Under the pieces are notes generated by a model. That model was given only the letters and a program-made list of their open reading frames with translations, was not told the DNA's origin and did no database searches. A DNA stretch of 63,743 nt, counting the filler, from Kipferlia bialata (lineage: Eukaryota): NCBI GenBank assembly GCA_003568945.1. It is 3 parts of 3 records of this genome, joined end to end, with 100 filler letters (N's around TTAATTAATTAA, not from the genome) between each part and the next. Parts side by side here need not be neighbours in the genome. Positions count along the whole stretch, not along the records: positions 1 to 26,192 come from BDIP01000193.1; positions 26,293 to 52,477 come from BDIP01000194.1; 1 more part is not named here. One strand, written 5' to 3'. The translations under genes and the position numbers were made by a program. Shown piece by piece: positions 15,196-63,390 of this stretch. The stretch's first letter is position 1, and the number at the start of each line of letters is the position of its first letter.

Positions 15196-17219
15196 GTGTC
15201 TATACCCTTATCCTCAGGGCGCTGACCAGCTCAACATGCTGCTGGGGGTGCTGGTGGAGAAGTTCCATGTGGAGCACCTGTCAAGGTATAGACACTATAC
15301 ACATGCACATACACACATTTTTTTATACATATGTATGTATATACTGCCTCTACCCCCCCATCCCCCCACCATCCCCCTCCCCTTCAGCACTCTTTATCTT
15401 CTTTTATGTATGCAGGAGTGGTGGAGTGGCTACTCCTAGACAACACCCATTTAATCTCTCTCGCTCTCTTTCCTATTGTGCTAACCATAAGGGATGGAGC
15501 TGACTCCACCCATGTCAATGAGAACTACAGTGGGGGAGCCATGCTGGGGGAGGCAGCCCCAGGGATGACCATCGAGAGTGCCATAGCCACTATCCAGAGG
15601 TATATACATAGTGTATATGTAGTATATATATATATATATATACACATATATATAGTGGGGGTGCCATGCTGGGGGAGGCAGCCCCAGGGATGACAATAGA
15701 GAGTGCCATAGCCACCATTCAGAGGTATTGTGATACTATATATATTGACCAAATATTTAGAGTGGGAGGGTTAGCCTCACCTATATCATGGTCTCTTACA
15801 CCCCAGCGCTATATCTCTGGATGAAATCTAATGATATTTTGTCGTGTCTCTAACCCCCAGGGCCGAGAGAGCCAGGCAGGGCAGGCAGAGAGCACGCATG
15901 ATGAGGGAGATTAGGTAAACACACACTCTCTTTGGGATCAATATATTGATTATTGTCGATTGATTGATTGTGATTGATTGATTCCAGGGCCCAGCACATC
16001 CGTGATCTGGCTGGTGTCCCAGACATGACCCAGAGACAGGGGGCGGTGCTGATTCAGGTTTGACTATACATACTCATTGATGTATATACATGGTATCCTT
16101 TTACATAACTACATAACTACATGACTGCTTTCCCGTATATTCCGTTCTTACCCCCCAGAGCCACTGGCGTGGCTTCACTGGCAGGCGAAGGGTGACACAG
16201 CTCAAGGTGGCAGAGGCTAGGTGGGTGCTGTTTATTATTATTCATATGTATGTATATAGAGGGAGAGAGAGAGAGAGAGAGAAAGAGACAGAAAGGAATA
16301 TGGGTGACACAGCTCAAGGTGGCAGAGGCTAAGTGAGGATAGTATATATATATATATAGTTAGAGAGAGAGAGAGAGAATATGGGTGACACAGCTCAAGG
16401 TGGCAGAGGCCAGGTTGGTGCTATTACATATCTATGTATACTATTGTATTTAACTCCCTATATCAATTTTGTCTTGTGTTAATCATTTGCCCTCACCCCC
16501 CAGGTTCCTGGGCATGGCCCCCCACCGAGGTGAGTCCCTGGTGCCTGTCCTGGAGGAGTACCTCCCCCCTAGTCTGGCCAGTACCATGGTACAAGAAGGA
16601 GTGGCACAGCTGAGGGCACAGGTATGTATAGTATTGTATGGTACGTATATATATGTATAGTATATACCCCTAGTCTGGCCAGTACCATAATGCAGGAGGG
16701 TATAGCTCAATTGAGAGCACAGGTACACTTTCTGTACATACATTGACATATGTGCGTAACGATGGTTCCTTTCCAATGTGTATCTTCCCCTATGCCTGAT
16801 CATCAGGACAGAGCTGACAGGAAGGGCGAGGGTGAGACTGCCCTGCCACCCACAGAGGCAGACAAGGTGTGTGTAGATATATATATAGATTTATATAGAT
16901 ATATATATATATTGTCATGGATGTCTACAAGTATAAATGTGTATTTCTGATGAGACTGCCCTGCCACCCACAGACAAGCTTATATATATATGTGTATATG
17001 TCAATGTCCCCTCACACCCAGGCTGCCCATGTGGCCCAGGAGAGAAGGACCAGGCAGAAGCAGGCTGAGGTAATGATATTATACATAATATTTTCAGATA
17101 CTCGTGGTAATGATAATGCAAACCCTTAAGTATTGTTGTTAGGTTCACAAGTACACATTATACCTCACCCCTAGGCCATGTACCGCATTGCCCATGGTAC
17201 TCTGCAGGAGTAGTTACTC

Positions 17220-17259
<40 letters not shown>

Positions 17260-27074: not shown

Positions 27075-27328
27075 ATGGAGCCAGAGAACACCCACGACGT
27101 CTATGCGACGTTGCGGCACTGCGTGGAGCTTGCGCAGAAGGATGTACGTAGCAGTGTGTGCTAGAATGTGTGTGTGTCTTCACTATCTCCTTGTTTATGA
27201 GTGTCTCTCTGATACCCAGAAGATCAAGGCTGCCAACTCATGGTCCCTGCCCCTGACTGAGCTGCTGGATGGTATCCTGGAGGAGTCCAACTCCTCTCCC
27301 ATCCAGCAGTTCCAGATGGCCACCCAAG
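27075..27328 (+). CDS. NCAPH: Condensin I kleisin CAP-H/Brn1/Barren, first two exons (27075-27143, 27220-27328)
   Basis: YATLRHCVELAQKD|KIKAANSWSLPLTELL...FQMATQG matches the kleisin N-terminal pattern C..LA..NKI...N.W.L.L...FQ.A. Truncated at the poly-C run near 27357. Confidence 0.7.
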
Positions 27329-27359
27329 GTAATACACCCTCTCTCTCTCTGTAACCTCC

Positions 27360-27402
<43 letters not shown>

Positions 27403-27690
27403 AGGGGGCCCCCCCCCCCCCCCCCCCCCCATCTACCTTCGTATATATGATATTATATGCATAGAGTAGTGGTGCTGATCAGTCCCCTCCCTTCCCCTTG
27501 TCACTGGAGGCCACGGGAATACATTGTGTGAACATATACATGTACCTATACACGTACTCTCTCTGTTTCTCTCTCTTACACTCAGACCATTTGTGTCACT
27601 AGACTCACATAGTGTGGATAGGTTTTCTTCCCAATATTAACCTCCCCCCCTCCCCCCCTCTCTCTCCCTTCTCTCTCTACTTATCCTCAG

Positions 27691-28043
27691 ACCATCTATG
27701 TCACTGGAGGCCACGGGTATTGGTGACGCTGGTGAGGTGAGGGGTGGGGAGTGTATCAACCCTGTTGCTGGTGAGGATAGAGAGGGTGGGATAGGGAGAG
27801 AGGCTGTTGTCACTGGGGACGAGGCATCACCACCGGAGCCAGACGCAGTCGCAGGTATGCGTTGTACTCTCACACTCTCATTCATCTCATATTCTCTTTC
27901 ACTTCCCCTCTCTCTCATCTTCTGACACTGTCAATGTAGACCTTCCCTCCCGACTCTCAGTCTCTCTCTCTCTCTCCCTCCCCTCTCTCTCACATATATT
28001 TACTTTAGACACAGTGAATGTGGACCTTGCCATCCAGCAGACG

Positions 28044-28080
<37 letters not shown>

Positions 28081-30533
28081 ACTATAGACACAGCCAACGT
28101 TGACCTTGCCATCCAGCAGATGGTCGAGAGGCGTGTCTCCCTCCTTGTCATGTACACTGCACTCGGTACTGTCTTGTCCCTAGCAGTGGTAATTGGGGCA
28201 TTAGTAGGTACAGTACTTCATGAATATAGTAGTATATATATATATCTAGAGTGTCCCTCCTTATCATGTACACTGCACTGGGCACTTTCCTATCATTGGC
28301 TGTAGTAATAGGGGCACTAGTAGGTCTGACATGCAATATATAGGATTATATGAATAGACATATATATATTGACCCTCCCCCAGTTGCCGTTGAGTTGCCG
28401 TTTCCATGAGTACCATCCATGCATGTCTCTCTCTCTCTCTCTCTCTCTCCCCCTACCTATATACTCATCCCAGTTGTGGTTGCCCTGAGCACCATCTATG
28501 CCATCGCACCCCTCATAGTGGGGCTCATAGGTACTCTCTCCCCCGTTACATATGTCATACTTTATAGATACAACTATGAATTTATCGGCCTTTTCAATAG
28601 TGTCAGGACACCCTTATAGTGGGGCTCATAGGTATACATATTCTCTCTATCTCTCTCTCTCTCTCTCTTTCACTCTCTCTCTATCTCTCATCTCTTAGGT
28701 GTCTTGTCCTTCCGAGCCTTGAACAGACGTCTCCTCATGATCTCCCTCTATGCCGCTCTGGCAGTCACACTCTTCTGCTGCTATCTCGCGGTGTTCTACC
28801 TGGCACTGATAGTGGTCACACTGGCATCCAACGATGGCACTAGGTAAGGGTACTGTATATACTGTATATACTGTATATACTGTGCTACATATTCTATATA
28901 TACTATGTCAGTACATACTGAATACCTTGCACTCATTGTGGTCACACTGGCCTCTAACGATGGGACTAGGTATGTTTACCATTTATGCATTGCCTATACC
29001 ATACTATATATTACTCACGGTCACGCTAGCCTCTTATGACATGACTAGGTGTAATATATATATATATACTCCATTCCAACTGTCAGCGTGTTCATATCTG
29101 TACACATTACTATACTTGTCTATTAGTGTAAGCTGACACCCAGCCTAGAGCTCTCCTCCATAATGATTTGTACAATATTTACAGTCATAAATATACCTAT
29201 ACCATATATATGTATACGTATATGTACTGTATACCTTGCACTCATCGTGGTCACACTGGCCTCTAACGATGGTACTAGGTATAGTGTACTGTACACACAT
29301 ATATCAATAGTTTAGGTTAGTAGTATATAGTATGTTTGAATATATACTAACTATCAGCCTAGAGCTCTCCTCCATCATCGGTGTGGCCGTTGGGTTTGGA
29401 TCTATGGCACTCATGCTCTGTCAGCTACTGTTAACTCAGGTATATATGGGATTAAAGGGGATATATATACGATTATGGTATTAACATATCTGTATGCTAT
29501 GTATATATATGGAGCACTTGTTGGGTTTGGGTCCATGGCACTCATGCTGTGCCAATTACAATTGACACAGGTAGTATTTACACACGCATTGTGAGTTGAT
29601 TAAGAGTTGAGCATACATTTAGCTCTGTCACCTGTCAACACATCATTATGTACATATTGATATATGCATGTCTGCCCAATCTCTCTCTGTATGCTTACCC
29701 CTCAGATCACCATTGTCGCTCTGTACCCTGGTGCCACGAGACTGGTCCCACTCTCTAGGTATGTCATATGTGTATATATACATATATACTATGTATACTA
29801 CTTGTATAATACTCTCACTCTGTTGCCACCAGACTGGTCCCACTCTCAAGGTATGTCCCTCTCACACACACTATGTCTCTATCACTCACTCTTTGTGTCT
29901 GTCTGCTCTTTATCTATACCTTCTTATCTCAGATGCCCCAGAGCCATCACCCTCTGTGCTGCCCCACTCATCGTGCCACACAGTACGTGTATATAGGAAT
30001 ATGAACATTCATGTATTTTACTATATTCTATGTATATACTGCCCCAGACCCTAAAGCAGAGGACTGCCCCCGGGAGACTACCTATCTCTCTCTCTCTCCA
30101 GATATATGTTTGTATGTATGTAGTAGACTATACTACCCCCAGACCCCAAGGCCGAGGACTGCCCCCGTGAGACTGCCCTGGATGTACCCCTGGTACTCAC
30201 CTGTGAGAGGGAGAGGGAGAGAGAGTGGAGGAGTGGGTCCAGGTATTTGTTTTAGTGTTTTAGTATTTGTCTCTGTAATGGGTATTCTTATACGAGTGTA
30301 TACACATTTGTCTCACTAATCCCCCAGGGCCAGTGGCATGGGTGCATCTGCCAGGGCATAATCACTATATGTTTGTACATATTTTTAGTATATACATAGA
30401 GTGTATGTATACCAATCATTACAGTTATACCTTACCCCCCAGGGCCAGTGGCAGAGGTCAATCTGCCAGGGCACAGGAGACACGGCATAGGTACAGCGCT
30501 CTCATTCTATTCCTTCTTATCCTTACACAGCAC

Positions 30534-30572
<39 letters not shown>

Positions 30573-30929
30573 CCATAGCCCATACTCTGTCCCTTGGTGT
30601 TTCCTCATCACAGTTATAGAGAACTGACACCATACTATATAAATAGATCTATGAATGTGTACATATATACATATATAATGTAACCGATATACTATACTCA
30701 CCACAGTAGAGAACTGCCTGACACTATCCACCCTAGGGTGGGTGTGGGTAACACACAGACAGAGAGGGCAGAGACTGTGGAGAGAGAGGGAGAAGGGGAG
30801 GGAGAGAGAGAGGCAGAGGCAGAGCAGGCATCTGATAGTACCTCCAGTGAGTCTGAGAGTATATTCAGTCTGAATGCAGAGTCAGACACAGAGGTGAGTA
30901 TATATAATGTAATTGTAATTATATATAAG

Positions 30930-30960
<31 letters not shown>

Positions 30961-31454
30961 ACATACATATACGTATGTATTTGAGAGTGTGTTCAGTCTG
31001 AATGCAGAGTCAGACACAGAGGTATATATATATGTGTATATACATACTACTACAAATACTATCGGCTCTTTGCTTATGATCTTGATACCTAAGATGTATG
31101 TTTGGCCTCAATGCAGAGTCAGACCCGTTTCTTTCGATAATACCGTTAATTTTTTTAACCTACAGACCCAGAGATATCTCCTCCTCTCTCTGTTGAGTCT
31201 CTCTAGAACCTCAATTTTGTCTTTCCTCTCTCTATGGACCCTCTTTTCACTCTCCATAGACCCTCTTTTCACCCTCAGGCTGATGGAGAGGGAGGCAGGT
31301 CACCCACTGAGGCTGAGAGGAACACCCACGTGGTCACAGCTTGTCACATTGCTACTCGGTACGAATAGTCACAGTTATGTCTGTCTGCAATTCTCTCTCT
31401 CTCTCTCTCCCTCTACACCCTTATATCAGCATTCCCCCTGGTGAGTGTGTCCTG

Positions 31455-31490
<36 letters not shown>

Positions 31491-33551
31491 TACACCCTTA
31501 TTCCAGCATTCCCCCCGGTGAGCCTGTCCTGGGTCTTAGTGTGCAGGTGTCCAGGATAGTCCTCGAGGCAAGGTAAATACATATATATATACACACCTTC
31601 ATATATGTATATATATATATATGAATAATTCAACACATTCGAAGTGTGCAGGTGTCCAGGATAGTCCTCGAGTCAAGGTATATTTGTATATAGCCACATA
31701 CATTTATGCTCATATCTCTCTCTATATATATATGAGTAATTGAACTCGTAGTGTCTCCAGGTGTCCAGGATAGTCATTGACTCAAGGTATATACATATGT
31801 ATACACCTTTGTGTTCATATATAGAAGTATATGAAGTACCAATACATTCGAAGTGTTCAAATGTCCAGGATAGTCCTTGAGTCAAGGTATACATGTATAC
31901 ACTCACACACTCAATTTTTCACGTATGTAAATGTATATAAGTATAATGTCTATACATCCTATCGTAGTGTCCAGGATAGTGTTGGAGTCAAGGTGGGTCA
32001 GTATTTGTATGTATAGTCAAGGTGCTAACCCTTAAGGGAACAAGAGCGCCAGGCCGCCCTCTTTATCAGCATGGACCCAGTTGGCAAGGGGAGGATCACA
32101 CACAGGGACAGGAGGAAGGGGTGTATAGGTACAGTAGTATAGTGTATATATATAGTATACAGTGTATAGTATATATCATGGACCTAGTTGGCAAGGGGAG
32201 GATCACACACAGAGACAGGAGGAAGGGGTGTATAGGTATACTAGTATAGTATATATAGTATATATAGTATATAGTGTATAGTATATGTGGTATGGACCCA
32301 GTTGGCAAGGGGAGGATCACACACAGAGACAGGAGGAAGGGGTGCATAGGTATAGAGTATAAATAGAGTATAGTATTTATACTATATACTAGTATTACCT
32401 CTCTAACAGTAGGTGTTGCCCGTATGCCCAATGGATACTATGTGTGCTATAAATACTATATACTAAAAACTATAATATATATATATTATACACTATACGC
32501 TGCACTAACTCCAGGTGTTGCCCGTATGCCCAATGGAGAGAACTGGTCACCCATCGATGAGGAGCAGGAGTCTAGGTATATGATATAGATATTTAGTATA
32601 TACGTATATATACATGTATAGTGTAATAATGCTAGTGTACTTGTTCTATGTATACATTATGAACTGGTCACCCATCGATGAGTAGTCTAGGTGTATGATA
32701 TCATATGTATTCATATACAGAAGCATATATGTATACATTAGTGATCTGTCTACCGTTATTCCTTTCTCTATGCATGTGCTTGTGATTCTATCTATAACCA
32801 TACATGTCTTCTCACCCCAGACTGGCCAGGAACAGACTCAGGGGGGCACATCACGAGGTGGGTGGATGCAAGACGAACACATAGTCTTTTGTATCCATAT
32901 ACATTTGTGTATCACTATAAATTGTTAATATGCCTGCGCATACTTTTTGAATCTGTGACTGACCACTTAGGCCTATGAGCGCCGTCTGGCCAACCACGAC
33001 ATCGGCCCTGAGGTATGTACTCTCTCTCTCTCTCTCTCCTCCTCTAATTATATATATATATATATATATATCCCTTTACACCCTTAATGCACAGGCCTAT
33101 GGCAGCAGTGCCATCATGACTGCTGGTCTTTGCACCCCTGGGGCGTCATTTCGATATGCCTCGACCGTAGAGGTACCAATATATATATATATATAAATGC
33201 ACCATACTATATAGGTAATTATATCATGTTGACCCTCGTTGACTCTGTCTGACCACCTTAGAATGACGTTGCCGTTGACTGTGCCAGTCCTAATAGGTCA
33301 AGGGGGGAGAGCATGCCACCACCCAACACTAAGCAGGTATTGTTATATATATTAGTATAGATAAGATACATACATTCACACATATATGTATATATATATA
33401 TAGTTTTCTAGAGAGCATGCCACCACCCAACACAAAGCAGGTATACACACACTATATGTAAGCAGGTACTAAGATATATATATACCTGCGCACCATCATG
33501 TGTATATGTTCACAAATGACTGACTCCTAGGTCCGCATGCCCCGAGAGTAG
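27691..33551 (+). CDS. Hypothetical multi-pass membrane protein with long hydrophilic C-terminus (about 20 short exons)
   Basis: Exons encode hydrophobic segments (VSLLVMYTALGTVLSLAVVIGALV; IYAIAPLIVGLIG; LLMISLYAALAVTLFCCYLAVFYLALIVVTLA; IIGVAVGFGSMALMLCQLLLTQITIVALY), then a charged low-complexity region. Last exon VRMPRE-stop at 33551. Confidence 0.6.
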
Positions 33552-33595: not shown

Positions 33596-33971
33596 TCCAT
33601 CCCCTCTGACTTATCCTGTACCCATATATAATTGAATAGACCCAGATCCCAGAGAATTTTACGCTATGAATACACAATGTACATATGTGAGTTAGTATCT
33701 TCTGCTTGCTATAGTACTTGAGAGTAGGTCTAGATGTCACAAATTCCTTATTGTATGAATGAGGGGAGATGCAGACAGAGAATACATTTGGTAGGTCAAG
33801 TTGCTGATGTGAGTGAATTCCAATCAGATAGTTTGTGACGAATCGAACAATAGTCTGTAATGGAATGGTTTGGGTCCAATCGGAGAGTTTGGTTTCAATA
33901 ATTGAAACATCTATTTAGAAGTGCAATTGCACCAAATCAAGATCCTTTACAACCCTTAGACCTCGTACGCT

Positions 33972-34393
33972 TGAACACCAAGCTCCCCGCTCAAGAACTG
34001 AGATTCCCGCTCGAACACCAAACTCCCCGCTCGGAGACAAAGCTACCCGCTCAAACACCAAACTCCCCCGCCTTGGAGACTAAACTCCCCGCGCGTAGAC
34101 TAAACTCCCCGCTTGAACACCAAACTCCCCGCTCTAAAACTAAACTTCCCGCGCGTAGACTTAACTTTCCGCGCGTAGACTTATCTCCCCGCTCGAGGTC
34201 CAAACTCCCCGCTCGGAGTCTAAACTCCCCGGGGCCCGGGGAGTATAGACTTTACTCCCCGCACGTAGACTTAACTTCCCGCTCGAACACCAAACTATTC
34301 GCTCGGAGACTAAACTTCCCGCTCGGAGACTAAACTTTCCCCTGGAACACCAAACTCCCAGCTCCCAGACTAAACTCTTCGCCTGGAGACTAA
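33972..34393. repeat. GC-rich minisatellite, ~20-nt unit AAACTCCCCGCTCG(GAGACT/AACACC), about 20 degenerate copies
   Basis: Visible tandem units such as AAACTCCCCGCTCGGAGAC, AAACTCCCCGCGCGTAGACT and AAACTTCCCGCTCGGAGACT. Confidence 0.9.
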
Positions 34394-35893
34394 GCCGTCC
34401 GATACTGTGCTCTCCGCTAGTACCCATGGTGTGGGTACACGAGCAGAGAGAGTTTTAGATATGTTGATGTTTTGCGGCTTATACGAGAAAGTTTGGTAAC
34501 GTAACAGAGAGTTTGTTTTCTTACAGACTTGACACTGAAGGAATTCGACAACATGCTTCTATTAAATAGTGACAAATGCATCTGTCACTTTGCTACTTGA
34601 ACGCTGTCCGATTGCCACGATTATCGTGGCCCACGATACATCGCTCCTGGAGGAAGACTCATACTATTAGCCGGTGCCGCTGAGCATGAGCACGTCCAAT
34701 GTTGATACATACAGTACCTACGATACAATATGTGTGAACTTGAAGTACAGGATGTACAAATTGTACAGTACAATATACTGTATTTAAATATCATACATGA
34801 TTTTATGAATATCAATCATTATTTATCGAATTACATACTCGTGCACAGTAATTGTTAGGACTCTAGCTATATGTGACATATAGCCTATATGTCACGTCGC
34901 TTCAAAACCTCTGGTTACTACTCGCAGTCGCCAGTAGCCCTGTGCATACCGATCAAGACACATCCAGTAACACACGTTGCGCAACCAGGCAAGTATCCCA
35001 CCATGAACACTTCGTGTGACACACGAGAATATACAGACACACCCACTGTATAGACAAAAACCGTCCTCTCTACGCCGTCTCCCCAAGTGGTGAATACAAC
35101 ATACCTCTCATTAGAGAGCACAACCATCTAATTTCCCTGCTCGTACTTACAACAGCCTCGGTAGGGGGGGGAGGGGGTACCTAGAAGTGTTGAGTCGGGG
35201 GAGAAAAATGGAGCGGTCCCACACTGAGCTCCAGTGGATTATTCTAAATCCACCTGGAAGTTAGGTCCCCGAACCGAAGTTGCATATCATATGGGGCTCG
35301 TGACGCACAACATGCACGACTACAGAACTCCAAAGGCTGTTTGTTAGACAGTACTAGGCGCCTTGTATCATATGTCATATATATACTAGCAGATCATTCA
35401 CATCATCTTCGTTTGAAGTGTCTGCCAGCATTATCCGTGCCTCTGCAGCCGTGCGTCTCGCTCGCCATTCTACTCGCCAGGTCATGGTTTCGAGGTCCAG
35501 ACAATCCCAACAGAAGTTAACTGGCCCGGCGCGTCTACAAAGAATGCACATTTGCCCCGATGAAGGGCTCTCTGGACCAACATAGATGACACACACACGC
35601 AGGTTCTGTGGAGTGTTGATGCCAAACCTTCGGGAGTATCCAAAACAGTGAGGACAATGTTGCCGTCCACATGTATCTCCATTAGAATCACCGTAGAGGT
35701 ATAGGTGAAGTCCAGGACACGGTGCCCTAATACTACAACTCGTCTGAAGTCTATTGGCACCGAGCGGCTAGTATTGAGTTCATTCACACCAATTACACTA
35801 GTAACATACTTGAGAAGCATGTATATATTGAATAAAGACTAAGCTTATAGTGAAGGCGGAGCTGAAAAGTCCAAAGAGAACATGATCCCTTCT

Positions 35894-38366
35894 TGCACGA
35901 CTTTTCCCACATACCGATAGTGCACGACTATTCCTGGACATCAACAGAGCACGACTGTTCCAACATATACCAATATTATAGATACTCTATTACTTCTGTA
36001 GGGTCACTGGACGTGATTGGACCATAGATACTGAAGTACTTGGGCTGGGGTGGGGGGGGCCAAAGCCTCTCAGCCTTCTCAGCCTCCAGTCTCACAGTCT
36101 CTCAGCCTCTGCTCTCACAGTCTCTGCTCTCACAGCTAACCATCTCTCAGTCTCAAGTCTCTCAGCCTCAAGCCTCTCAGCCTCTACCCTCTAAGCCTGC
36201 AGTCTCTCAGCCTTTACTATCTCGGCCTCAAGCCTCTCAGCCTCAGCTTTCTCGGCAGCAAGTCTCTCAGCCTCAGCCTTCTCAGCAGCAAGTCTCTCAG
36301 CCTGCTAGGGTCAGAAACAAGGGTCATCACAAATATGCACTACTATATTCTGGTTATAGGGGCAATACTATTATTGCCCCTATAAGTTATAGGGCCTATA
36401 ACCAGTATCAGTATCAGTGTCAGTATTGTTATTGTATGAGGGGGGGTCTACCTTAGTAGTATATAGTCTATAGTCTAGTGCACGACTTTTCCTGCACAAA
36501 TAATGAAAGTGCACTACTATTCTGGTTATAGGTAAGACATATGGGAATCTACCTCAGCTACAGCCCCCTTCTGAGTGGTCTCCTTGGACATGGCAGGGGC
36601 TGCGTCGGCCTATCAGTCAGGGGGGTATAATAAGATTGTTTTCCAGTGCACGACTTTTCCTGCACACAAATGGGAGCGTGTATACAAACCTCTGAGGCTG
36701 AGGGGAACACAGAATGGTCTAGCAAGGATGATCCATCACCACTGGGGGGATGGTATAGTGTCATGGATTCCTCAATATCAGTATCTTCCCTATATACAGG
36801 GGGCGAAGCACTGGATGAGCATTCCCAACCCAAAACCTCTTCAGGGAAGACAATGCACGCCTCTCCTCTGAGCTCCTGGGCTGGTACTACGTCGGCCTAT
36901 CTGTCGGCGGGGAGAGATAAAAGAGGATCATAAAAGAGGATCATACTGGCCTGTGTGTGTGTGTGATGTCAATACCTTCTCAGCAGCGACCATCTTTGCC
37001 TTTCTCTTGGCCTTCTTAACGACACAGGGTATGTCCAGTCAAACAGGCTGTCGTGTGTGCTGTTTGTGTATATGTGGGAAAGAGAGGTCAGTGAGATCGG
37101 CGACAAATCTTATTTACTTAAGGATTAATCTCCATTATTTTTGTTGACTCCTAACGACTATTGGTTTAGTGTATGTGAGAAAAGTCGTTCACTATTGTTG
37201 TGGAAATAGTCGTGCACTATTTGTATGTCGGAAGAGTTGTGCATTGTCTCTATCCTAAATGATACCAGTTAACAGATGCTGCTTCCCACTCTCCTGAATC
37301 CCCAGTGGCATCACCTTCCCAGTGCTAGTAGGATTCAAGGCCTGGTAGGGGCATTCCCCCTGTTCCTGTCCTGGACGGTATGTACTCGTGGAACGTGGGT
37401 AAATTGGGCCCTAGGTGCCTGCCCACACCCCCTGCCCCCACGGCCATCACGGGTCTGTTCTCTATGTTCTGGGACTGCCTGCTTGTCTGAAGGTACTGTT
37501 GCACCTGCTGTATACCCTGTTGCATCTGCTGTGGGGGGGCCTGGTACTGCTGGGGCATCTGCCCTTTCTGCATCCGCTGGGGGTGTGGATTGGGTTGTGC
37601 CTGGTGTTCCTGTCCCTGTCCCTGGGGGTAGGACATCCGCAGTGTCTGCTGGGGCCCATGGTCAGGGGCAGGGTGACCCAGGGTGGGTATGCACTATTAT
37701 TCTGTGAGAATAGTCGTGCACTACTGTGCGGGAAAAGTCGTGCACTATACAGCACCTGTGTACTGTGACATATACTCGAGCAGTGCATACGTACCTGAAA
37801 CGTCGTCCCCCACTCTGCGTCATGAGGTTCGTTCTCACCAGCTTGAAACCGGTTAAACACCGCAAGTGGGATGGGCTCCCCTGCGAACTGCCCAAGAGGA
37901 GCCCTGCGCGTTTCGGGAATGTACCACGTTGTCTGAATATCAGGGAAGGAAATCAACGAATATACTGGCCTGGAACTAATGCGGAGTACCTGTACCCTTC
38001 TATGTCGGCATCGCCTTCAAAGGCAAGAGGGAGAGCCAGGGTTTCGGACATTAAGAATGAAGGAGGTTCCACTAATCCCTTTAAGTCCCTCCCTAGGTCA
38101 GACGGGTCTACCATATTGTTTTCCCAGATATATCCCACGTGAATAGTATCTCCTCGGTGCTTATGATGGTTACTGATACTAGTGCAGCTGGTAAAGACGC
38201 TCTACAACGCAGCATTCTTTTGAATTTCGCCTTAATATATACTTGATATTGGTTTAGTAGGGTATGTGAGAAAAGTCGTGCACCATTTGTGTGTGCGAAA
38301 AGTCGTGCACACTTTTGTGTGTGAGAAAAGTCGTGCACCCTTTGTGTGTGGGTAAAGTCGTGCACC
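35894..38366. repeat. Dispersed motif GTGCACGACTWTT / AAWAGTCGTGCAC, about 14 copies, including four tandem ~27-nt units at 38265-38366
   Basis: Forward copies near 35894, 35920, 35948, 36478, 36509, 36646. Reverse copies near 37180, 37205, 37709, 37733, 38271, 38298, 38326, 38353. Confidence 0.85.
36060..36305 (-). pseudogene. Degenerate (K)AEAERLAAE coiled-coil repeat exon
   Basis: After the acceptor CTGACCCTAG the minus strand reads QAERLAAEKAEAERLAAEKAEAERLEAEIVKAERLQA-stop, and the repeat pattern continues past the stop. Confidence 0.4.
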
Positions 38367-38506
38367 GTATATATATGTACGCCACCGCGCGGCCCAACCC
38401 CCATTCCACTACTACCAAGCCTGCCCCAAGAGTTACCGGGATCTACTGGGGACAGACATATATAATTTGGTATAACAACTACTGACCACGGTTTCTGTTA
38501 CAGAGT

Positions 38507-59753: not shown

Positions 59754-60139
59754 GAGTGACACCTACATCATGCACCCAGCAGACAATGCCTCATCCATCA
59801 GCCTAAAGTGCACAGGTGTCACACAATATGCATCATATGTATAGTATTACTATACAACATACGTGTCGACATCCCTTCATGCCAGGTTCCACCCTCAGCA
59901 GTGACTATCTTGTTGCCTACACTGCCAACTGTGACAGCAGTGGATATCCAACAACGGTATGGCATATGAGTAGTATCATATCATTATCATATCTACACCC
60001 TTGTTGCTGCAGTATTCTCTCTCTCTTCTCTTCTCTCACATCAGTACACCGGCTCGCAGCAGGTCGCCTATGCCTCAGGCACCATTGGAATCGATGGGTA
60101 TGGTTGATACTGTCCATGTGTCTCTTGTATAGGTATATC

Positions 60140-60170
<31 letters not shown>

Positions 60171-63100
60171 ATCATATGTATACTAGAATGTATTCTGACC
60201 CAGGGAGTCTGACCTCCTCCTCCAAGCGTAAGCATACAAAGTACATAAGTATTTCTCTATATGTATTCATATGAGGAATATGTATACATAGTATGAGTCT
60301 ATGTAGTCTCATCTCAGGGAGTACAGTCTGACCTCCTCCTCCAAGGACTGTGTCTATGTCAAGTTCAGAAGCTCATACTCGAGGTAGACATTATATAGTA
60401 TGTATGTATATAAATACATGTATATATTGACTAATGCGAGGTATTATACTTAATGTCATATAGTATACGTATATAGACTATATGCACTGTGTCTCGGTCA
60501 AGTTCAGAAGCTCATACTCGAGGTATAGTACTGTATGTATCTTGTGTATTTACAGAGAGATACTAAAGAGTATATGTATAGTGTATATGTAAGTATCTCA
60601 AGTTCAGAAGCTAATACTCGAGGTAGATAGTATATTGCACTTGTATATTGTATATAATTATGTATTTATATAATAATGTATTTATACATAGACTAATGCA
60701 CAGCTACTCTGAGTACAGACAAACTACAGCTTACTTGTTGGGAGACTGCCCCCCCCCCCCCTTCCCTTATCTGACCCCAGCATGTATGGCTCCCACGGTG
60801 ACTTCCAGTGCGACTGGGCTGCAGGTATGAGTATCAGTATAGTATATTATAGTATTTATATATGGTATCTATATATCTATAGACTAATCTGCAGCTGGTG
60901 CCTTCACCCCCCAGACCACCCTGTCAGGCACCTTTGGACCAGAGGACTATGACATCAACAGGTACGTGACACGGCTGGTATAGATAGTGTGTGATATAGG
61001 TTTAGTACGGATAGTATTTGTGTACACAATGCATACATAATTATATAGGTATATATATAGATTCGAACCAGAGGACTATGACATCAACAAGTACGTGACA
61101 GATATATATACAATACATACACACATATGTCTATATCTATAGAGAGAGAGAGAGAGAGATTCGGACCAGAGGACTATGACATCAACAAGTACGTTTATAT
61201 ACGTGTATGTATATATGTGTGTGTTTATATATATGCACTAGCATTGTATGGAGAGACGGTATTATTATTTCTCCCTCACCTCAGGTACGAGAAGTATGTC
61301 GTGCACCCCGGTGACATGGCCTCGGCCAATGTGACATGCACCGGCAAGATGAACCAGAGCAGTGACGAGTTTGAGGTAATAGTCTCATACACACAGGAAT
61401 ATGAAATGATTCTCATTACACTTGAACGTATATGCATGACTTCGGGTACTTATACGTGTCCTAGAAGATGAACCAGAGCAGCGACGAGTTTGAGGTACAA
61501 ACAATGTATATGCGTCTATATAGGAAGTGTCTATCACTCTCACATATTACTATGTATCTATAAATAACTATATATATCTATGTAACTATATATATATCCA
61601 ACTCTGCCCCTCTCACTCCCAGCTCTACAAGGCCTCATGTGATAGCAGTCACGACACATCACAGGCCACTCTGGTGGTGTCAGCTGATAGGGAGATCAGG
61701 TATAATTCACATATGTGTTAGACATGTATATTCATATAGCCTACATATATGTGTATGATATTCACTACACTATACTCTCAAGTCAAAGGGAGATCAGGTA
61801 TAGAGAGTATACTATACACATGAGTGCAACTAGTAGAGTATCACACTACTATACACTAGTTTCTGTGCTGATAGGGAGATCAGGTATACAATTATGAGTG
61901 TACCTGAGGTCATATACTACACACTACACTACTCGACTACCCTCTGACTTCAGTATCGATGAGTCCCTAACCTTTGAGGGTTCCCTCAACTGCTTCTATG
62001 TCATATGGAGGACCAAGAACAACAGCTACAGAGACTACGGCAACCTACCCACCTGCACCTACCAGGCAAGGGACTCCAGTATTAGTATCAGTATATACAG
62101 ATATATAGATATATGTAGCTACTGATACTTCCAGGCGGTGGACTCCAATGGCAACACCAGTGACTCTGAAGACGACAACGGTGACGACGACGACACCAGT
62201 GACCCAATCGACCCTAGTGACATCAACCCAATGTTCCTGCTCGTAGGTACCTAATGTATCAACTGTATCTACTGTATATGGAATGCTACCCTCTCTCTGT
62301 TAGATAGAACATATATATACAGTACATATATACTTCTTGATCCACATATATAGATGGATCCGGTGTTCTTGGTGGCTGGTAGGAGCCATGGACTGTGTCC
62401 CAAGGTCCCAACAATCCCATATACACATTATATATACATTCGGGTGTGTGTATACTATTACTTTCTTCTATGGTTCCTGATAGCAAGTACGTACAAACAT
62501 CCAGATACATACACATATATACATGTTTATAGCACTTAACACGCCACATCACTCTTGTTTCTCATCCCAGGCGGTCTCCTCGTCCTGTGCATTCTCCTCA
62601 GCATATGCGTCTGTGTGTGTAACAAGCATGAGGAGGAGGAGGAGGAGGGGGAGGAGGAGGAGGAGGAGAGTGTACAGTGCGTGAGTCACTCCCCTAGTAT
62701 ACCTAGTATGCCTAGTATGCCTAGTATGCCTGGTGTCCAGACTGGGGTTACTGCCACTCAGCCATCTGGTGTGGCCATGTCACCAATGGGTAACATGTCA
62801 CAAGTGACAACAGGCATGGGTACAATGGGTGGGCAGGTGAGAACAATGTCCAGATACACAGGGTAGACATCTCTCTCACGCAGAGTATCCGCCTCAACCT
62901 GACCACAGTAAGACTTCTTCTCCAGCCTCTCTCACCCCTGTTATGTTGAACTCCTTCTCTCTCTCTCTCCCCCTCCTTTACCCCCAGTTGACCCCTGCCA
63001 TGTTATACTCTTTCTCTCTCTCTCTCTCTCCCCTCTCCTCCCTTACCCCCAGCTGACCCCTGCCATGCTGGACTCCATGTCCTCCCAGCAGCTCCAGATG

Positions 63101-63390
63101 CAGCTCTACATGCAACAGATGCAGATGCAGCAGGTAGAGTGACATATATATATAGAGAGAGAGAGAGAGAGATGCAGCAGATGCAAATGCAGCAGGTACA
63201 GTGACATATATTGTATATACACATTTGTATGGAGAGAGAGTGAAGTCTGATGCACCAGATGTACAGGATGTCCATGAACCAGGGCATGATACATCCAGTG
63301 CAGCAGTCTACGGGTGTTAGCAAGGTAGAGACAGCGGTAGAGGTAGAGGCGCAGCTGCCAGGAGGGGTGGAGGCAGTGGAGAGTGTGTAG
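59754..63390 (+). CDS. Type I membrane protein with two CUB-like extracellular modules, acidic stalk, TM helix and Met/Gln-rich tail (5' end missing)
   Basis: Two parallel modules: YIMHP...LKCTG...YTANCDSS...CVYVKFRS and SGTFGPEDYDINRYEKYVVHP...VTCTG...YKASCDSS...CFYVIWRT. TM segment GGLLVLCILLSICVCVC. Last exon ends VEAVESV-stop at 63390. Confidence 0.55.

What the first reader, a model, noticed from the sequence alone, without database searches (positions are those of the whole stretch)
15531..29570. Echoes differ from their exons mainly at synonymous positions: non-coding copies with a coding signature
Hand alignments of exon vs echo (synonymous/non-synonymous codon differences): 15531-15599 vs 15656-15724 = 5/0; 16568-16621 vs 16669-16722 = 7/3 (M/I, V/M, V/I); 19174-19222 vs 19286-19334 = 2/0; 28135-28207 vs 28251-28323 = 10/2 (V/I, V/F); 28797-28843 vs 28923-28969 = 6/0; 29389-29439 vs 29520-29570 = 8/1. 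Total 38/6 with no indels, including two-base synonymous swaps (TTG/CTA). These pairs were chosen by eye, and some other echoes do carry replacements. A neutrally decaying duplicate would show many random replacements, so both versions appear to have evolved as coding sequence. Hypotheses: (a) fragments captured from highly diverged alleles or conspecific DNA during homologous repair that aborts in microsatellites; (b) an archive of exon variants swapped in by gene conversion or deletion between the direct repeats; (c) non-canonical splicing that uses the echoes. This is the best candidate for an undescribed system in the window.
Basis: partly seen in the sequence, partly recalled or inferred. 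Interest (0 to 1): 0.95.

Follow-up and report, generated by a model that had tools for sequence, protein, structure and literature searches.

The report
Introns storing pieces of other alleles
In the protist Kipferlia bialata about a third of exon ends in this window have a short near-copy parked in the next intron that differs mostly at silent codon positions and was spliced out of the one transcript checked; the copies are likely pieces of other working alleles left by faulty recombination, so one clonal genome would record hidden sex and population diversity.

Summary
The six pairs are exactly as described: 38 synonymous, 6 replacement codons, no indels. They are the extreme of a general feature. 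An unselected scan of 115 exons gives 115 echoes on 74 of 214 exon ends. dN/dS is 0.04 for the six, 0.30 for all, 0.18 outside one LRR gene and 0.49 inside it; a dead same-chromosome duplicate simulates at 0.51-0.71. Pair 2 lies on one independently assembled DNA contig with no variant letters. A spliced contig carries the exon alleles and skips pairs 1-2, so these are neither stitched haplotypes nor the main mRNA. Echoes mostly keep GT/AG, yet their intron flank is not a copy of the exon's own, and they also decay (9 stops). Best reading (0.55): exon ends of other functional alleles, left in tandem when inter-homolog break repair ends by end-joining. This is inferred: no second strain was found. 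The scan noted similar echoes in a sea-urchin gene (e1-7787398, unchecked). I found no description in ten literature searches, two of them on this species.

The parts
14900..19222 (+). Gene A, 18 modelled exons, 14 echoes (IQCA1/DRC11-like is a recalled label, not confirmed)
   Evidence: ten exons fit spliced contig; no informative hit
15531..15599 (+). Pair 1 exon end (exon 15492-15599), used in the spliced contig
15651..15724 (+). Pair 1 echo, followed by GT, offset 125
16568..16621 (+). Pair 2 exon end (exon 16504-16621), used in the spliced contig
16669..16722 (+). Pair 2 echo, followed by GT, offset 101; on one DNA contig with its exon
16302..16413 (+). Two donor-side echoes of exon 16159-16220
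17175..17332 (+). Two acceptor-side echoes (AG plus exon start) of exon 17400-17513, sharing a junction but with different acceptor flanks
19174..19222 (+). Pair 3 exon end
19286..19562 (+). Three echoes of pair 3 exon (19286, 19396, 19514); spacer relationships and coding-site relationships conflict, so the array is mosaic
26193..26292 (.). N-linker between scaffolds; pairs 1-3 and 4-6 are unlinked
   Evidence: contig length 26192 listed
27691..33336 (+). Gene D, membrane-protein-like, 18 modelled exons, 24 echoes
28135..28207 (+). Pair 4 exon end
28251..28323 (+). Pair 4 echo, followed by GT
28797..28843 (+). Pair 5 exon end
28923..29278 (+). Pair 5 echoes at 28923 and 29232; exon and two echoes show three different synonymous codons at two sites
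29389..29439 (+). Pair 6 exon end
29520..29570 (+). Pair 6 echo, followed by GT
31538..31992 (+). Exon end plus four echoes; all four share a Ser codon where the exon has Ala
6184..12027 (-). Gene E, 22 modelled exons, 22 echoes, dN/dS 0.19
40192..51977 (-). LRR-like gene F, 23 modelled exons, 42 echoes, dN/dS 0.49, 6 stops
   Evidence: weak LRR_6 hit below cut-off
59754..63384 (+). Gene G, 13 modelled exons, 10 echoes

Best explanation
Echoes are real intronic near-copies of an exon end plus its splice site, and they are likely pieces of other functional alleles left in tandem by aborted recombination between divergent homologous chromosomes. Inferred steps: (1) a break falls in an exon while two divergent haplotypes share a cell (sex or parasex); (2) one end invades the homolog and copies about 100 nt, running through the splice site into the partner's different intron; (3) re-annealing fails and the ends are joined end to end, probably by polymerase theta; (4) one allele's exon end stays functional and the other's lies dead in the intron, where splicing ignores it; (5) only products that span one splice site and not the next survive selection; (6) later out-of-register exchange between echoes and exons makes stacked, mosaic arrays while echoes slowly decay. 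The synonymous excess is then borrowed polymorphism between alleles that were both functional until the event, not selection on the echo. Shown: presence in DNA, absence from the main mRNA, low dN/dS, splice-site retention, foreign flanks, decay, mosaicism. Not shown: a donor allele, sex, or the enzymes used.
For: dN/dS 0.18 (0.11-0.28) in 73 non-LRR echoes and 0.20 (0.13-0.30) in the 86 that keep their splice dinucleotide; neutral-echo simulations give 0.51-0.71 with a lowest replicate of 0.35, both-constrained ones 0.18-0.20. Non-LRR mismatches by codon position are 58/23/133. 102 of 115 echoes reach the exon end, 86 of those keep GT/AG, 1 of 115 has a gap. Identity falls from about 0.85 in the exon part to 0.55 and below from intron position +4 (unrelated donors about 0.3). 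None of 25 echoes with 0-1 difference has a near-identical flank, yet 24 of 86 flanks beat unrelated introns at p<=0.05: homologous but diverged, as alleles would be. Six shared-junction echo pairs differ at 18 synonymous/10 replacement sites (p=0.02 against the 0.5 floor). Removing echo units leaves a median 94-nt intron versus 103.5 in echo-free introns; steps have median 104 nt. Near-tandem repeats: 3 in 11.4 kb intergenic versus 97 in 34.5 kb of short exons and introns. No variant letters, so no sign of a second haplotype or close paralog, in DNA contigs over 14885-17880. The species is listed with Spo11, Dmc1, Rad52, PolQ, Msh2/3 and without Ku70 or Rad51A-D (PMC8516963 supplement rows).
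Against: No second strain was found, so no echo was matched to a living allele. Sex has not been observed in metamonads (PMC8516963 section 10). The LRR gene (0.49) and non-LRR acceptor echoes (0.38) do not reject the neutral floor; non-LRR genes outside the finding give 0.27 with CI up to 0.56. Replacements are not significantly conservative (BLOSUM p=0.07 and 0.14) and are AT-biased 38:16, i.e. largely decay. Flanks diverge more than synonymous sites, which needs fast intron turnover or exon-limited conversion on top. Birth between homologs cannot be told from birth on one chromosome followed by allele exchange. Two genes have no echo above threshold in 10 introns, unexplained.
Confidence: 0.55

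Rival explanations
1. Echoes are born as exact same-chromosome tandem duplications, and ordinary allelic recombination or gene conversion in a highly polymorphic population later puts a different allele in the exon or echo. Same source of the synonymous excess, different birth.
For: 19168-19337 versus 19396-19565 has a near-identical spacer with synonymous-only exon differences; arrays are mosaic; a short duplicate with a matching flank lies near 19830-19900.
Against: Only 3 of 86 flanks are near-identical, none among the 25 least-diverged echoes; fresh duplicates are scarce in intergenic DNA; repeated exchange inside about 31 nt of homology is demanding (inference).
Confidence: 0.22
2. Echoes are kept by selection as usable coding sequence: rare alternative or recursive splicing, or a repair or variation archive swapped into the exon.
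For: High splice-site retention; branch-point motif in 13 of 35 AG-bearing echoes versus 29 of 691 other intronic AGs; synonymous bias even between echoes.
Against: The spliced contig carries exon alleles and joins across the echoes. Donor echoes have no acceptor and acceptor echoes no donor. 9 stops and 16 lost splice dinucleotides. Swapping synonymous variants offers little benefit. No exon-to-echo deletion joint among the 15 joints shown (27 not shown).
Confidence: 0.1
3. Plain neutral tandem duplicates; the signature is selection on the exon copy plus picking by eye.
For: The six pairs are extreme (0.04 versus 0.36 for the rest); LRR and site-lost echoes fit 0.5-0.66; replacements are AT-biased.
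Against: Non-LRR echoes without the six exon ends give 0.29 (0.20-0.42), below the simulated range of 0.51-0.71; flanks are not copies.
Confidence: 0.06
4. Echoes come from paralogous genes elsewhere in the genome by ectopic repair.
For: LRR exons are repetitive by nature, and their echoes are the most diverged.
Against: No contig with other letters at 85% or more lay on gene A exons (filters and bubble removal limit this); echoes match only the adjacent exon (null 8 of 2419).
Confidence: 0.05
5. Assembly artefact: two strains or haplotypes stitched in tandem.
For: The scaffolds have suspicious joins at poly-C/G tracts; X1 may be the window's own sample, so it tests the assembler, not the sample.
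Against: One 868-nt contig holds pair 2 exon and echo with 0 differences at depth 438, like neighbouring contigs (340-469); contigs break at the 32-nt identical core of pair 1, as expected if both copies are genomic. Junctions from intron into mid-exon exist in neither allele.
Confidence: 0.02

Closest known systems
Tandem duplications from aborted SDSA closed by polymerase theta end-joining (C. elegans helq-1 and brc-1; PMC8654963, passages)
   Same: An extended break end that fails to anneal is end-joined, giving a head-to-tail duplication; K. bialata is listed with PolQ and without Ku70.
   Different: There the template is usually the sister, so copies are identical, and it occurs in mutants. 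Here copies differ like alleles, are about 100 nt, span splice sites and mark a third of exon ends in the window.
Meiotic double-cut end-joining giving tandem duplications and inter-homolog joins (mouse; bioRxiv 10.1101/2020.06.23.168138, passages)
   Same: Breaks on two chromatids joined out of register can duplicate a segment and mix haplotypes.
   Different: Rare hotspot events seen mainly without ATM; no accumulation in introns is described in the passages read.
Internal gene duplication and intron gain by tandem genomic duplication (review PMC3443670, passages; Gao and Lynch 2009 not held, recalled)
   Same: Short duplications inside genes that include splice sites and are absorbed by splicing.
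   Different: These echoes lengthen existing introns instead of creating new ones, and carry allele-like synonymous divergence and foreign flanks.
Crossing-over confined to exons in hypervariable Schizophyllum commune (PMC4209137, abstract)
   Same: Recombination between genomes about 14% apart favours conserved exons, the setting the model needs.
   Different: It describes in-register crossovers, not duplicated exon ends.
Gene-conversion archives such as trypanosome VSG, Borrelia vls and chicken Ig pseudogenes (recalled)
   Same: Silent homologous pieces near or matching an expressed gene, with a coding signature and mosaicism.
   Different: Those diversify amino acids at one dedicated locus; echoes are mostly synonymous, spread over unrelated genes and decay.
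Mutually exclusive tandem exons (recalled)
   Same: Adjacent diverged exon copies with low dN/dS.
   Different: Echoes are partial, have one splice site only and are absent from the main transcript.

Membership tests
Aborted-HR plus end-joining tandem duplication | Head-to-tail unit added to an otherwise normal locus | tested here: met
   Core intron median 94 nt after removing units versus 103.5
Aborted-HR plus end-joining tandem duplication | Copies identical at birth (sister template) | tested here: not met
   0 of 25 least-diverged echoes have a near-identical flank; homolog template inferred instead
Aborted-HR plus end-joining tandem duplication | Microhomology at the junction; dependence on polymerase theta | not testable with these tools
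   Donor flanks unknown; gene presence only from PMC8516963 supplement
Inter-allelic capture | Echo state exists as exon allele in another isolate | not testable with these tools
   No second strain
Inter-allelic capture | dN/dS below the 0.5 floor of a dead duplicate | tested here: met
   0.18 non-LRR, 0.30 all; not met in the LRR gene alone
Mutually exclusive exons | Each copy has acceptor and donor and appears in mRNA | tested here: not met
   One splice site per echo; spliced contig skips echoes of gene A; minor isoforms untested
Gene-conversion diversification archive | Cassettes supply amino-acid variants to an expressed locus at high rate | tested here: inconclusive
   Mosaic arrays but mostly synonymous and decaying; no variant letters in DNA contigs, which drop rare variants
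Intron gain by tandem genomic duplication | Duplication creates a new intron between duplicated AG/GT sites | tested here: not met
   Echoes lie inside pre-existing introns with their own distal splice site
Haplotype-stitching artefact | Tandem arrangement absent from independent contigs; reduced depth | tested here: not met

The most novel reading that the evidence does not exclude
In a lineage whose only listed recombinase is mismatch-tolerant Dmc1 and which lacks Ku, exon ends are routinely replaced by those of mating partners, and each displaced version is stacked in the neighbouring intron and can be exchanged back. Introns would then be a genome-wide, ordered fossil record of past alleles that also drives intron length, letting sex, recombination tract length (about 100 nt) and population diversity (synonymous about 0.15-0.2) be read from one clonal genome.
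Probability: 0.35. Interest if true: 0.85.

Novelty: new variant of a known kind. Interest (0 to 1): 0.66.

Why it matters
Sex has not been observed in metamonads (PMC8516963). If echoes are allele fragments, thousands of them genome-wide (extrapolating 115 per 107 introns) would be direct evidence of recombination between divergent haplotypes, and would give diversity and tract-length estimates from a single clone. They also account for much of the intron length here (median 257 with versus 103.5 nt without), a route of intron growth to test in other hyperdiverse eukaryotes. They show a spliceosome ignoring near-perfect decoy splice sites about 100 nt away, and they are a trap for gene predictors: my own predictor called several as exons.

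Tried and rejected
No whole genome is held, so statistics cover only 8 gene models in this window. No RNA holder is listed on record; X2 is only guessed to be RNA, though its contig is spliced exactly at modelled sites. Reads were laid only on 14885-17880, so pairs 3-6 are unchecked against reads. Bins over echoes without X2 cover are not counted as evidence; only the contig joining across them is. Searches for a second strain found none: DEAD-box exon, next hits at or below 43% identity; TPR exon in metagenomes, 2 loci at 42-46%; gene A exon, no hit. Pfam on ten exon or ORF pieces gave TPR above cut-off and LRR_6 and Cnd2 below. Microsatellite junctions: no enrichment. Conservative replacements: not significant. 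Divergence gradient along echoes: weak and confounded by alignment ends. Exon divergence versus flank score: no correlation. Near versus far echoes in arrays: replacement codons 45/309 versus 74/383, site kept 22/27 versus 22/36, suggestive only. An mRNA or cDNA source was rejected because echoes carry GT or branch point plus AG. Same-chromosome conversion alone was rejected by reasoning: it gives dN/dS of 0.5-1. Gao and Lynch 2009 could not be read.
Full report
Setting. The window is eukaryotic, intron-rich DNA. One exon matches P0001, named Kipferlia bialata DNA polymerase alpha subunit B, at 100%, and my model of that gene matches the annotated protein. N-linkers at 26193-26292 and 52478-52577 separate scaffolds, so the finding covers two unlinked genes, A (pairs 1-3) and D (pairs 4-6). 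No whole genome is held.

Observation. The six pairs reproduce exactly, 38 synonymous and 6 replacement codons, ungapped, each ending at GT. To remove selection by eye I modelled 8 genes (115 exons, 107 introns) and aligned every exon to its flanking introns at score 14 or more, a level reached by 8 of 2419 exon versus foreign-intron pairs. This gave 118 hits; I dropped 3 (one low-complexity, one with two gaps, one mid-exon hit on a CT tract), leaving 115: 65 donor-side downstream and 50 acceptor-side upstream. 74 of 214 internal exon ends have one. Median length is 31 nt and median step 104 nt, 10-90% range 76-137. 102 reach the exon end; 51 of 56 keep GT and 35 of 46 keep AG. One has a gap and there are 9 stop codons.

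Coding signature. dN/dS is 0.04 for the six pairs, 0.30 (0.21-0.40) for all, 0.36 (0.27-0.48) without the six, 0.18 (0.11-0.28) for 73 non-LRR echoes, 0.29 (0.20-0.42) for 64 non-LRR echoes without the six exon ends, and 0.49 (0.34-0.72) for 42 LRR echoes. Simulation through the same detection gave 0.51-0.71 over 20 settings and minima of 0.35-0.40 in three sets of 60 replicates; with both copies constrained it gave 0.18-0.20. The signal is strongest on the donor side (non-LRR 0.11) and weaker on the acceptor side (0.38, CI to 0.70; 0.25 where AG is kept). Echoes that lost or do not reach the site give 0.66. Replacements are AT-biased (38:16, p=0.004) and not significantly conservative. Echoes therefore decay, but start from a synonymous distance that decay cannot explain. 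Subtracting twice dN from dS in non-LRR echoes leaves about 0.17 (my arithmetic), the predicted allelic synonymous diversity.

Real, and not the main mRNA. Two runs of one sample hold the region; X1 may be the window's source, so it tests the assembler only. On 14885-17880, an 868-nt X1 contig covers 16381-17214, containing pair 2 exon and echo, with no differences at depth 438; the 8 listed X1 contigs have depth 340-469. Contigs break at the 32-nt identical core of pair 1. No other letters were listed. An X2 contig lies in 8 listed pieces whose record coordinates fit ten modelled exons base for base, the other two by gap length. It has no other letters across all differing sites of pairs 1 and 2 and joins across their echoes.

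Flanks. A fresh same-chromosome duplicate would copy the intron start as well. It does not: donor-side identity is about 0.85 in the exon, 0.95 at GT, 0.55 at +4 to +6 and 0.39-0.50 beyond, against about 0.3 for unrelated donors. Of 86 flanks, 3 are near-identical, none among the 25 echoes with 0-1 difference, while 24 beat unrelated introns at p<=0.05. Acceptor echoes have a strict branch-point motif in 13 of 35, real acceptors in 60 of 107, other intronic AGs in 29 of 691. An echo plus flank thus looks like the same exon-intron junction from another working copy. In the pair 3 array, spacers and junctions group copies 1+3 and 2+4 while a silent site groups 1+2 and 3+4; in pair 5, exon and two echoes show three different codons at each of two sites. 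Six hand-picked shared-junction echo pairs differ at 18 synonymous and 10 replacement sites. Removing echo units leaves normal-length introns, and intergenic DNA has 3 such repeats in 11.4 kb against 97 in 34.5 kb of genes. Junctions are not enriched in dinucleotide repeats.

Mechanism. Both copies must have spent most of their divergence as functional sequence. With no sign of a paralog or second haplotype in the contigs and no use in the main mRNA, other alleles are the simplest source. Aborted SDSA closed by polymerase theta makes tandem duplications in C. elegans mutants (PMC8654963, passages); meiotic double cuts can be end-joined between chromatids and homologs in mouse (10.1101/2020.06.23.168138, passages). 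With a divergent homolog as template the product is an echo. K. bialata is listed with Spo11, Dmc1, Rad52, PolQ, Msh2, Msh3 and XPF and without Ku70 or Rad51A-D (PMC8516963: passages, sections 8 and 10, supplement rows; one supplement file unreadable). Dmc1-lineage residues stabilise mismatched triplets (PMC6719624, abstract), and crossovers favour exons in a hypervariable fungus (PMC4209137, abstract). These make the model plausible; they do not show it. The main rival, same-chromosome birth with later allele exchange, shares the conclusion that the differences are borrowed polymorphism.

What is known. Passages of the species' genome paper report 124,912 introns, and its main text has no occurrence of 'duplicat', 'heterozyg' or 'ploid' (PMC5874029); passages of PMC6679479 cover its spliceosomal proteins only. 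Ten searches were seen as listings, and none showed a description of this feature; only named the species, and targeted the phenomenon. The library lacks most subscription journals, and Gao and Lynch 2009 was not held (title seen in PMC3443670). The scan has no notes on this genome and one on a sea-urchin gene with duplicated splice junctions (e1-7787398), which I did not check.

Verdict. Observation confirmed, though the six pairs overstate it about fivefold to sevenfold in dN/dS. It is a real feature in all three scaffolds of the window, likely a by-product of recombination between divergent alleles rather than a dedicated system. New variant of a known kind; interest 0.66.

Noticed in passing
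window 19600-19766: Gene A stops at a poly-C tract and the polymerase alpha B gene begins just after it without a clear 5' part; possible misjoin at a homopolymer.
   Followed up: no
window 27059-27430: A condensin Cnd2-like start (weak Pfam hit) runs into a poly-C tract and then membrane-protein-like gene D; possible misjoin.
   Followed up: partly
window 19766-24641: The polymerase alpha B and TPR genes have no echo above threshold in 10 introns, against roughly one per intron in most other genes.
   Followed up: partly
window 62054-62146: The gene G model needs a GC donor at 62066, and the sequence around it resembles that around the next acceptor; possible intron arisen by duplication.
   Followed up: no
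window 33960-34400 and 36080-36300: Degenerate tandem arrays with units of about 20 and 15 nt in an apparently gene-poor stretch.
   Followed up: no
window 35900-38370: A dispersed motif of about 12-25 nt recurs in both orientations around short ORFs; may be ends of a mobile element.
   Followed up: no
window, modelled introns: A branch-point-like motif lies within about 11 nt of the AG in 60 of 107 acceptors, like the fused branch point and acceptor recalled for diplomonads and trichomonads.
   Followed up: partly
window 17897-18965 region of gene A: Several separate exons begin with the same Lys/Gly-rich repeat, suggesting whole-exon duplications that were kept in the protein.
   Followed up: no
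window 40192-51977: The LRR-like gene has up to five strongly diverged echoes per exon end, many still open with motif-compatible changes; possibly diversifying selection or exchange among repeats.
   Followed up: partly
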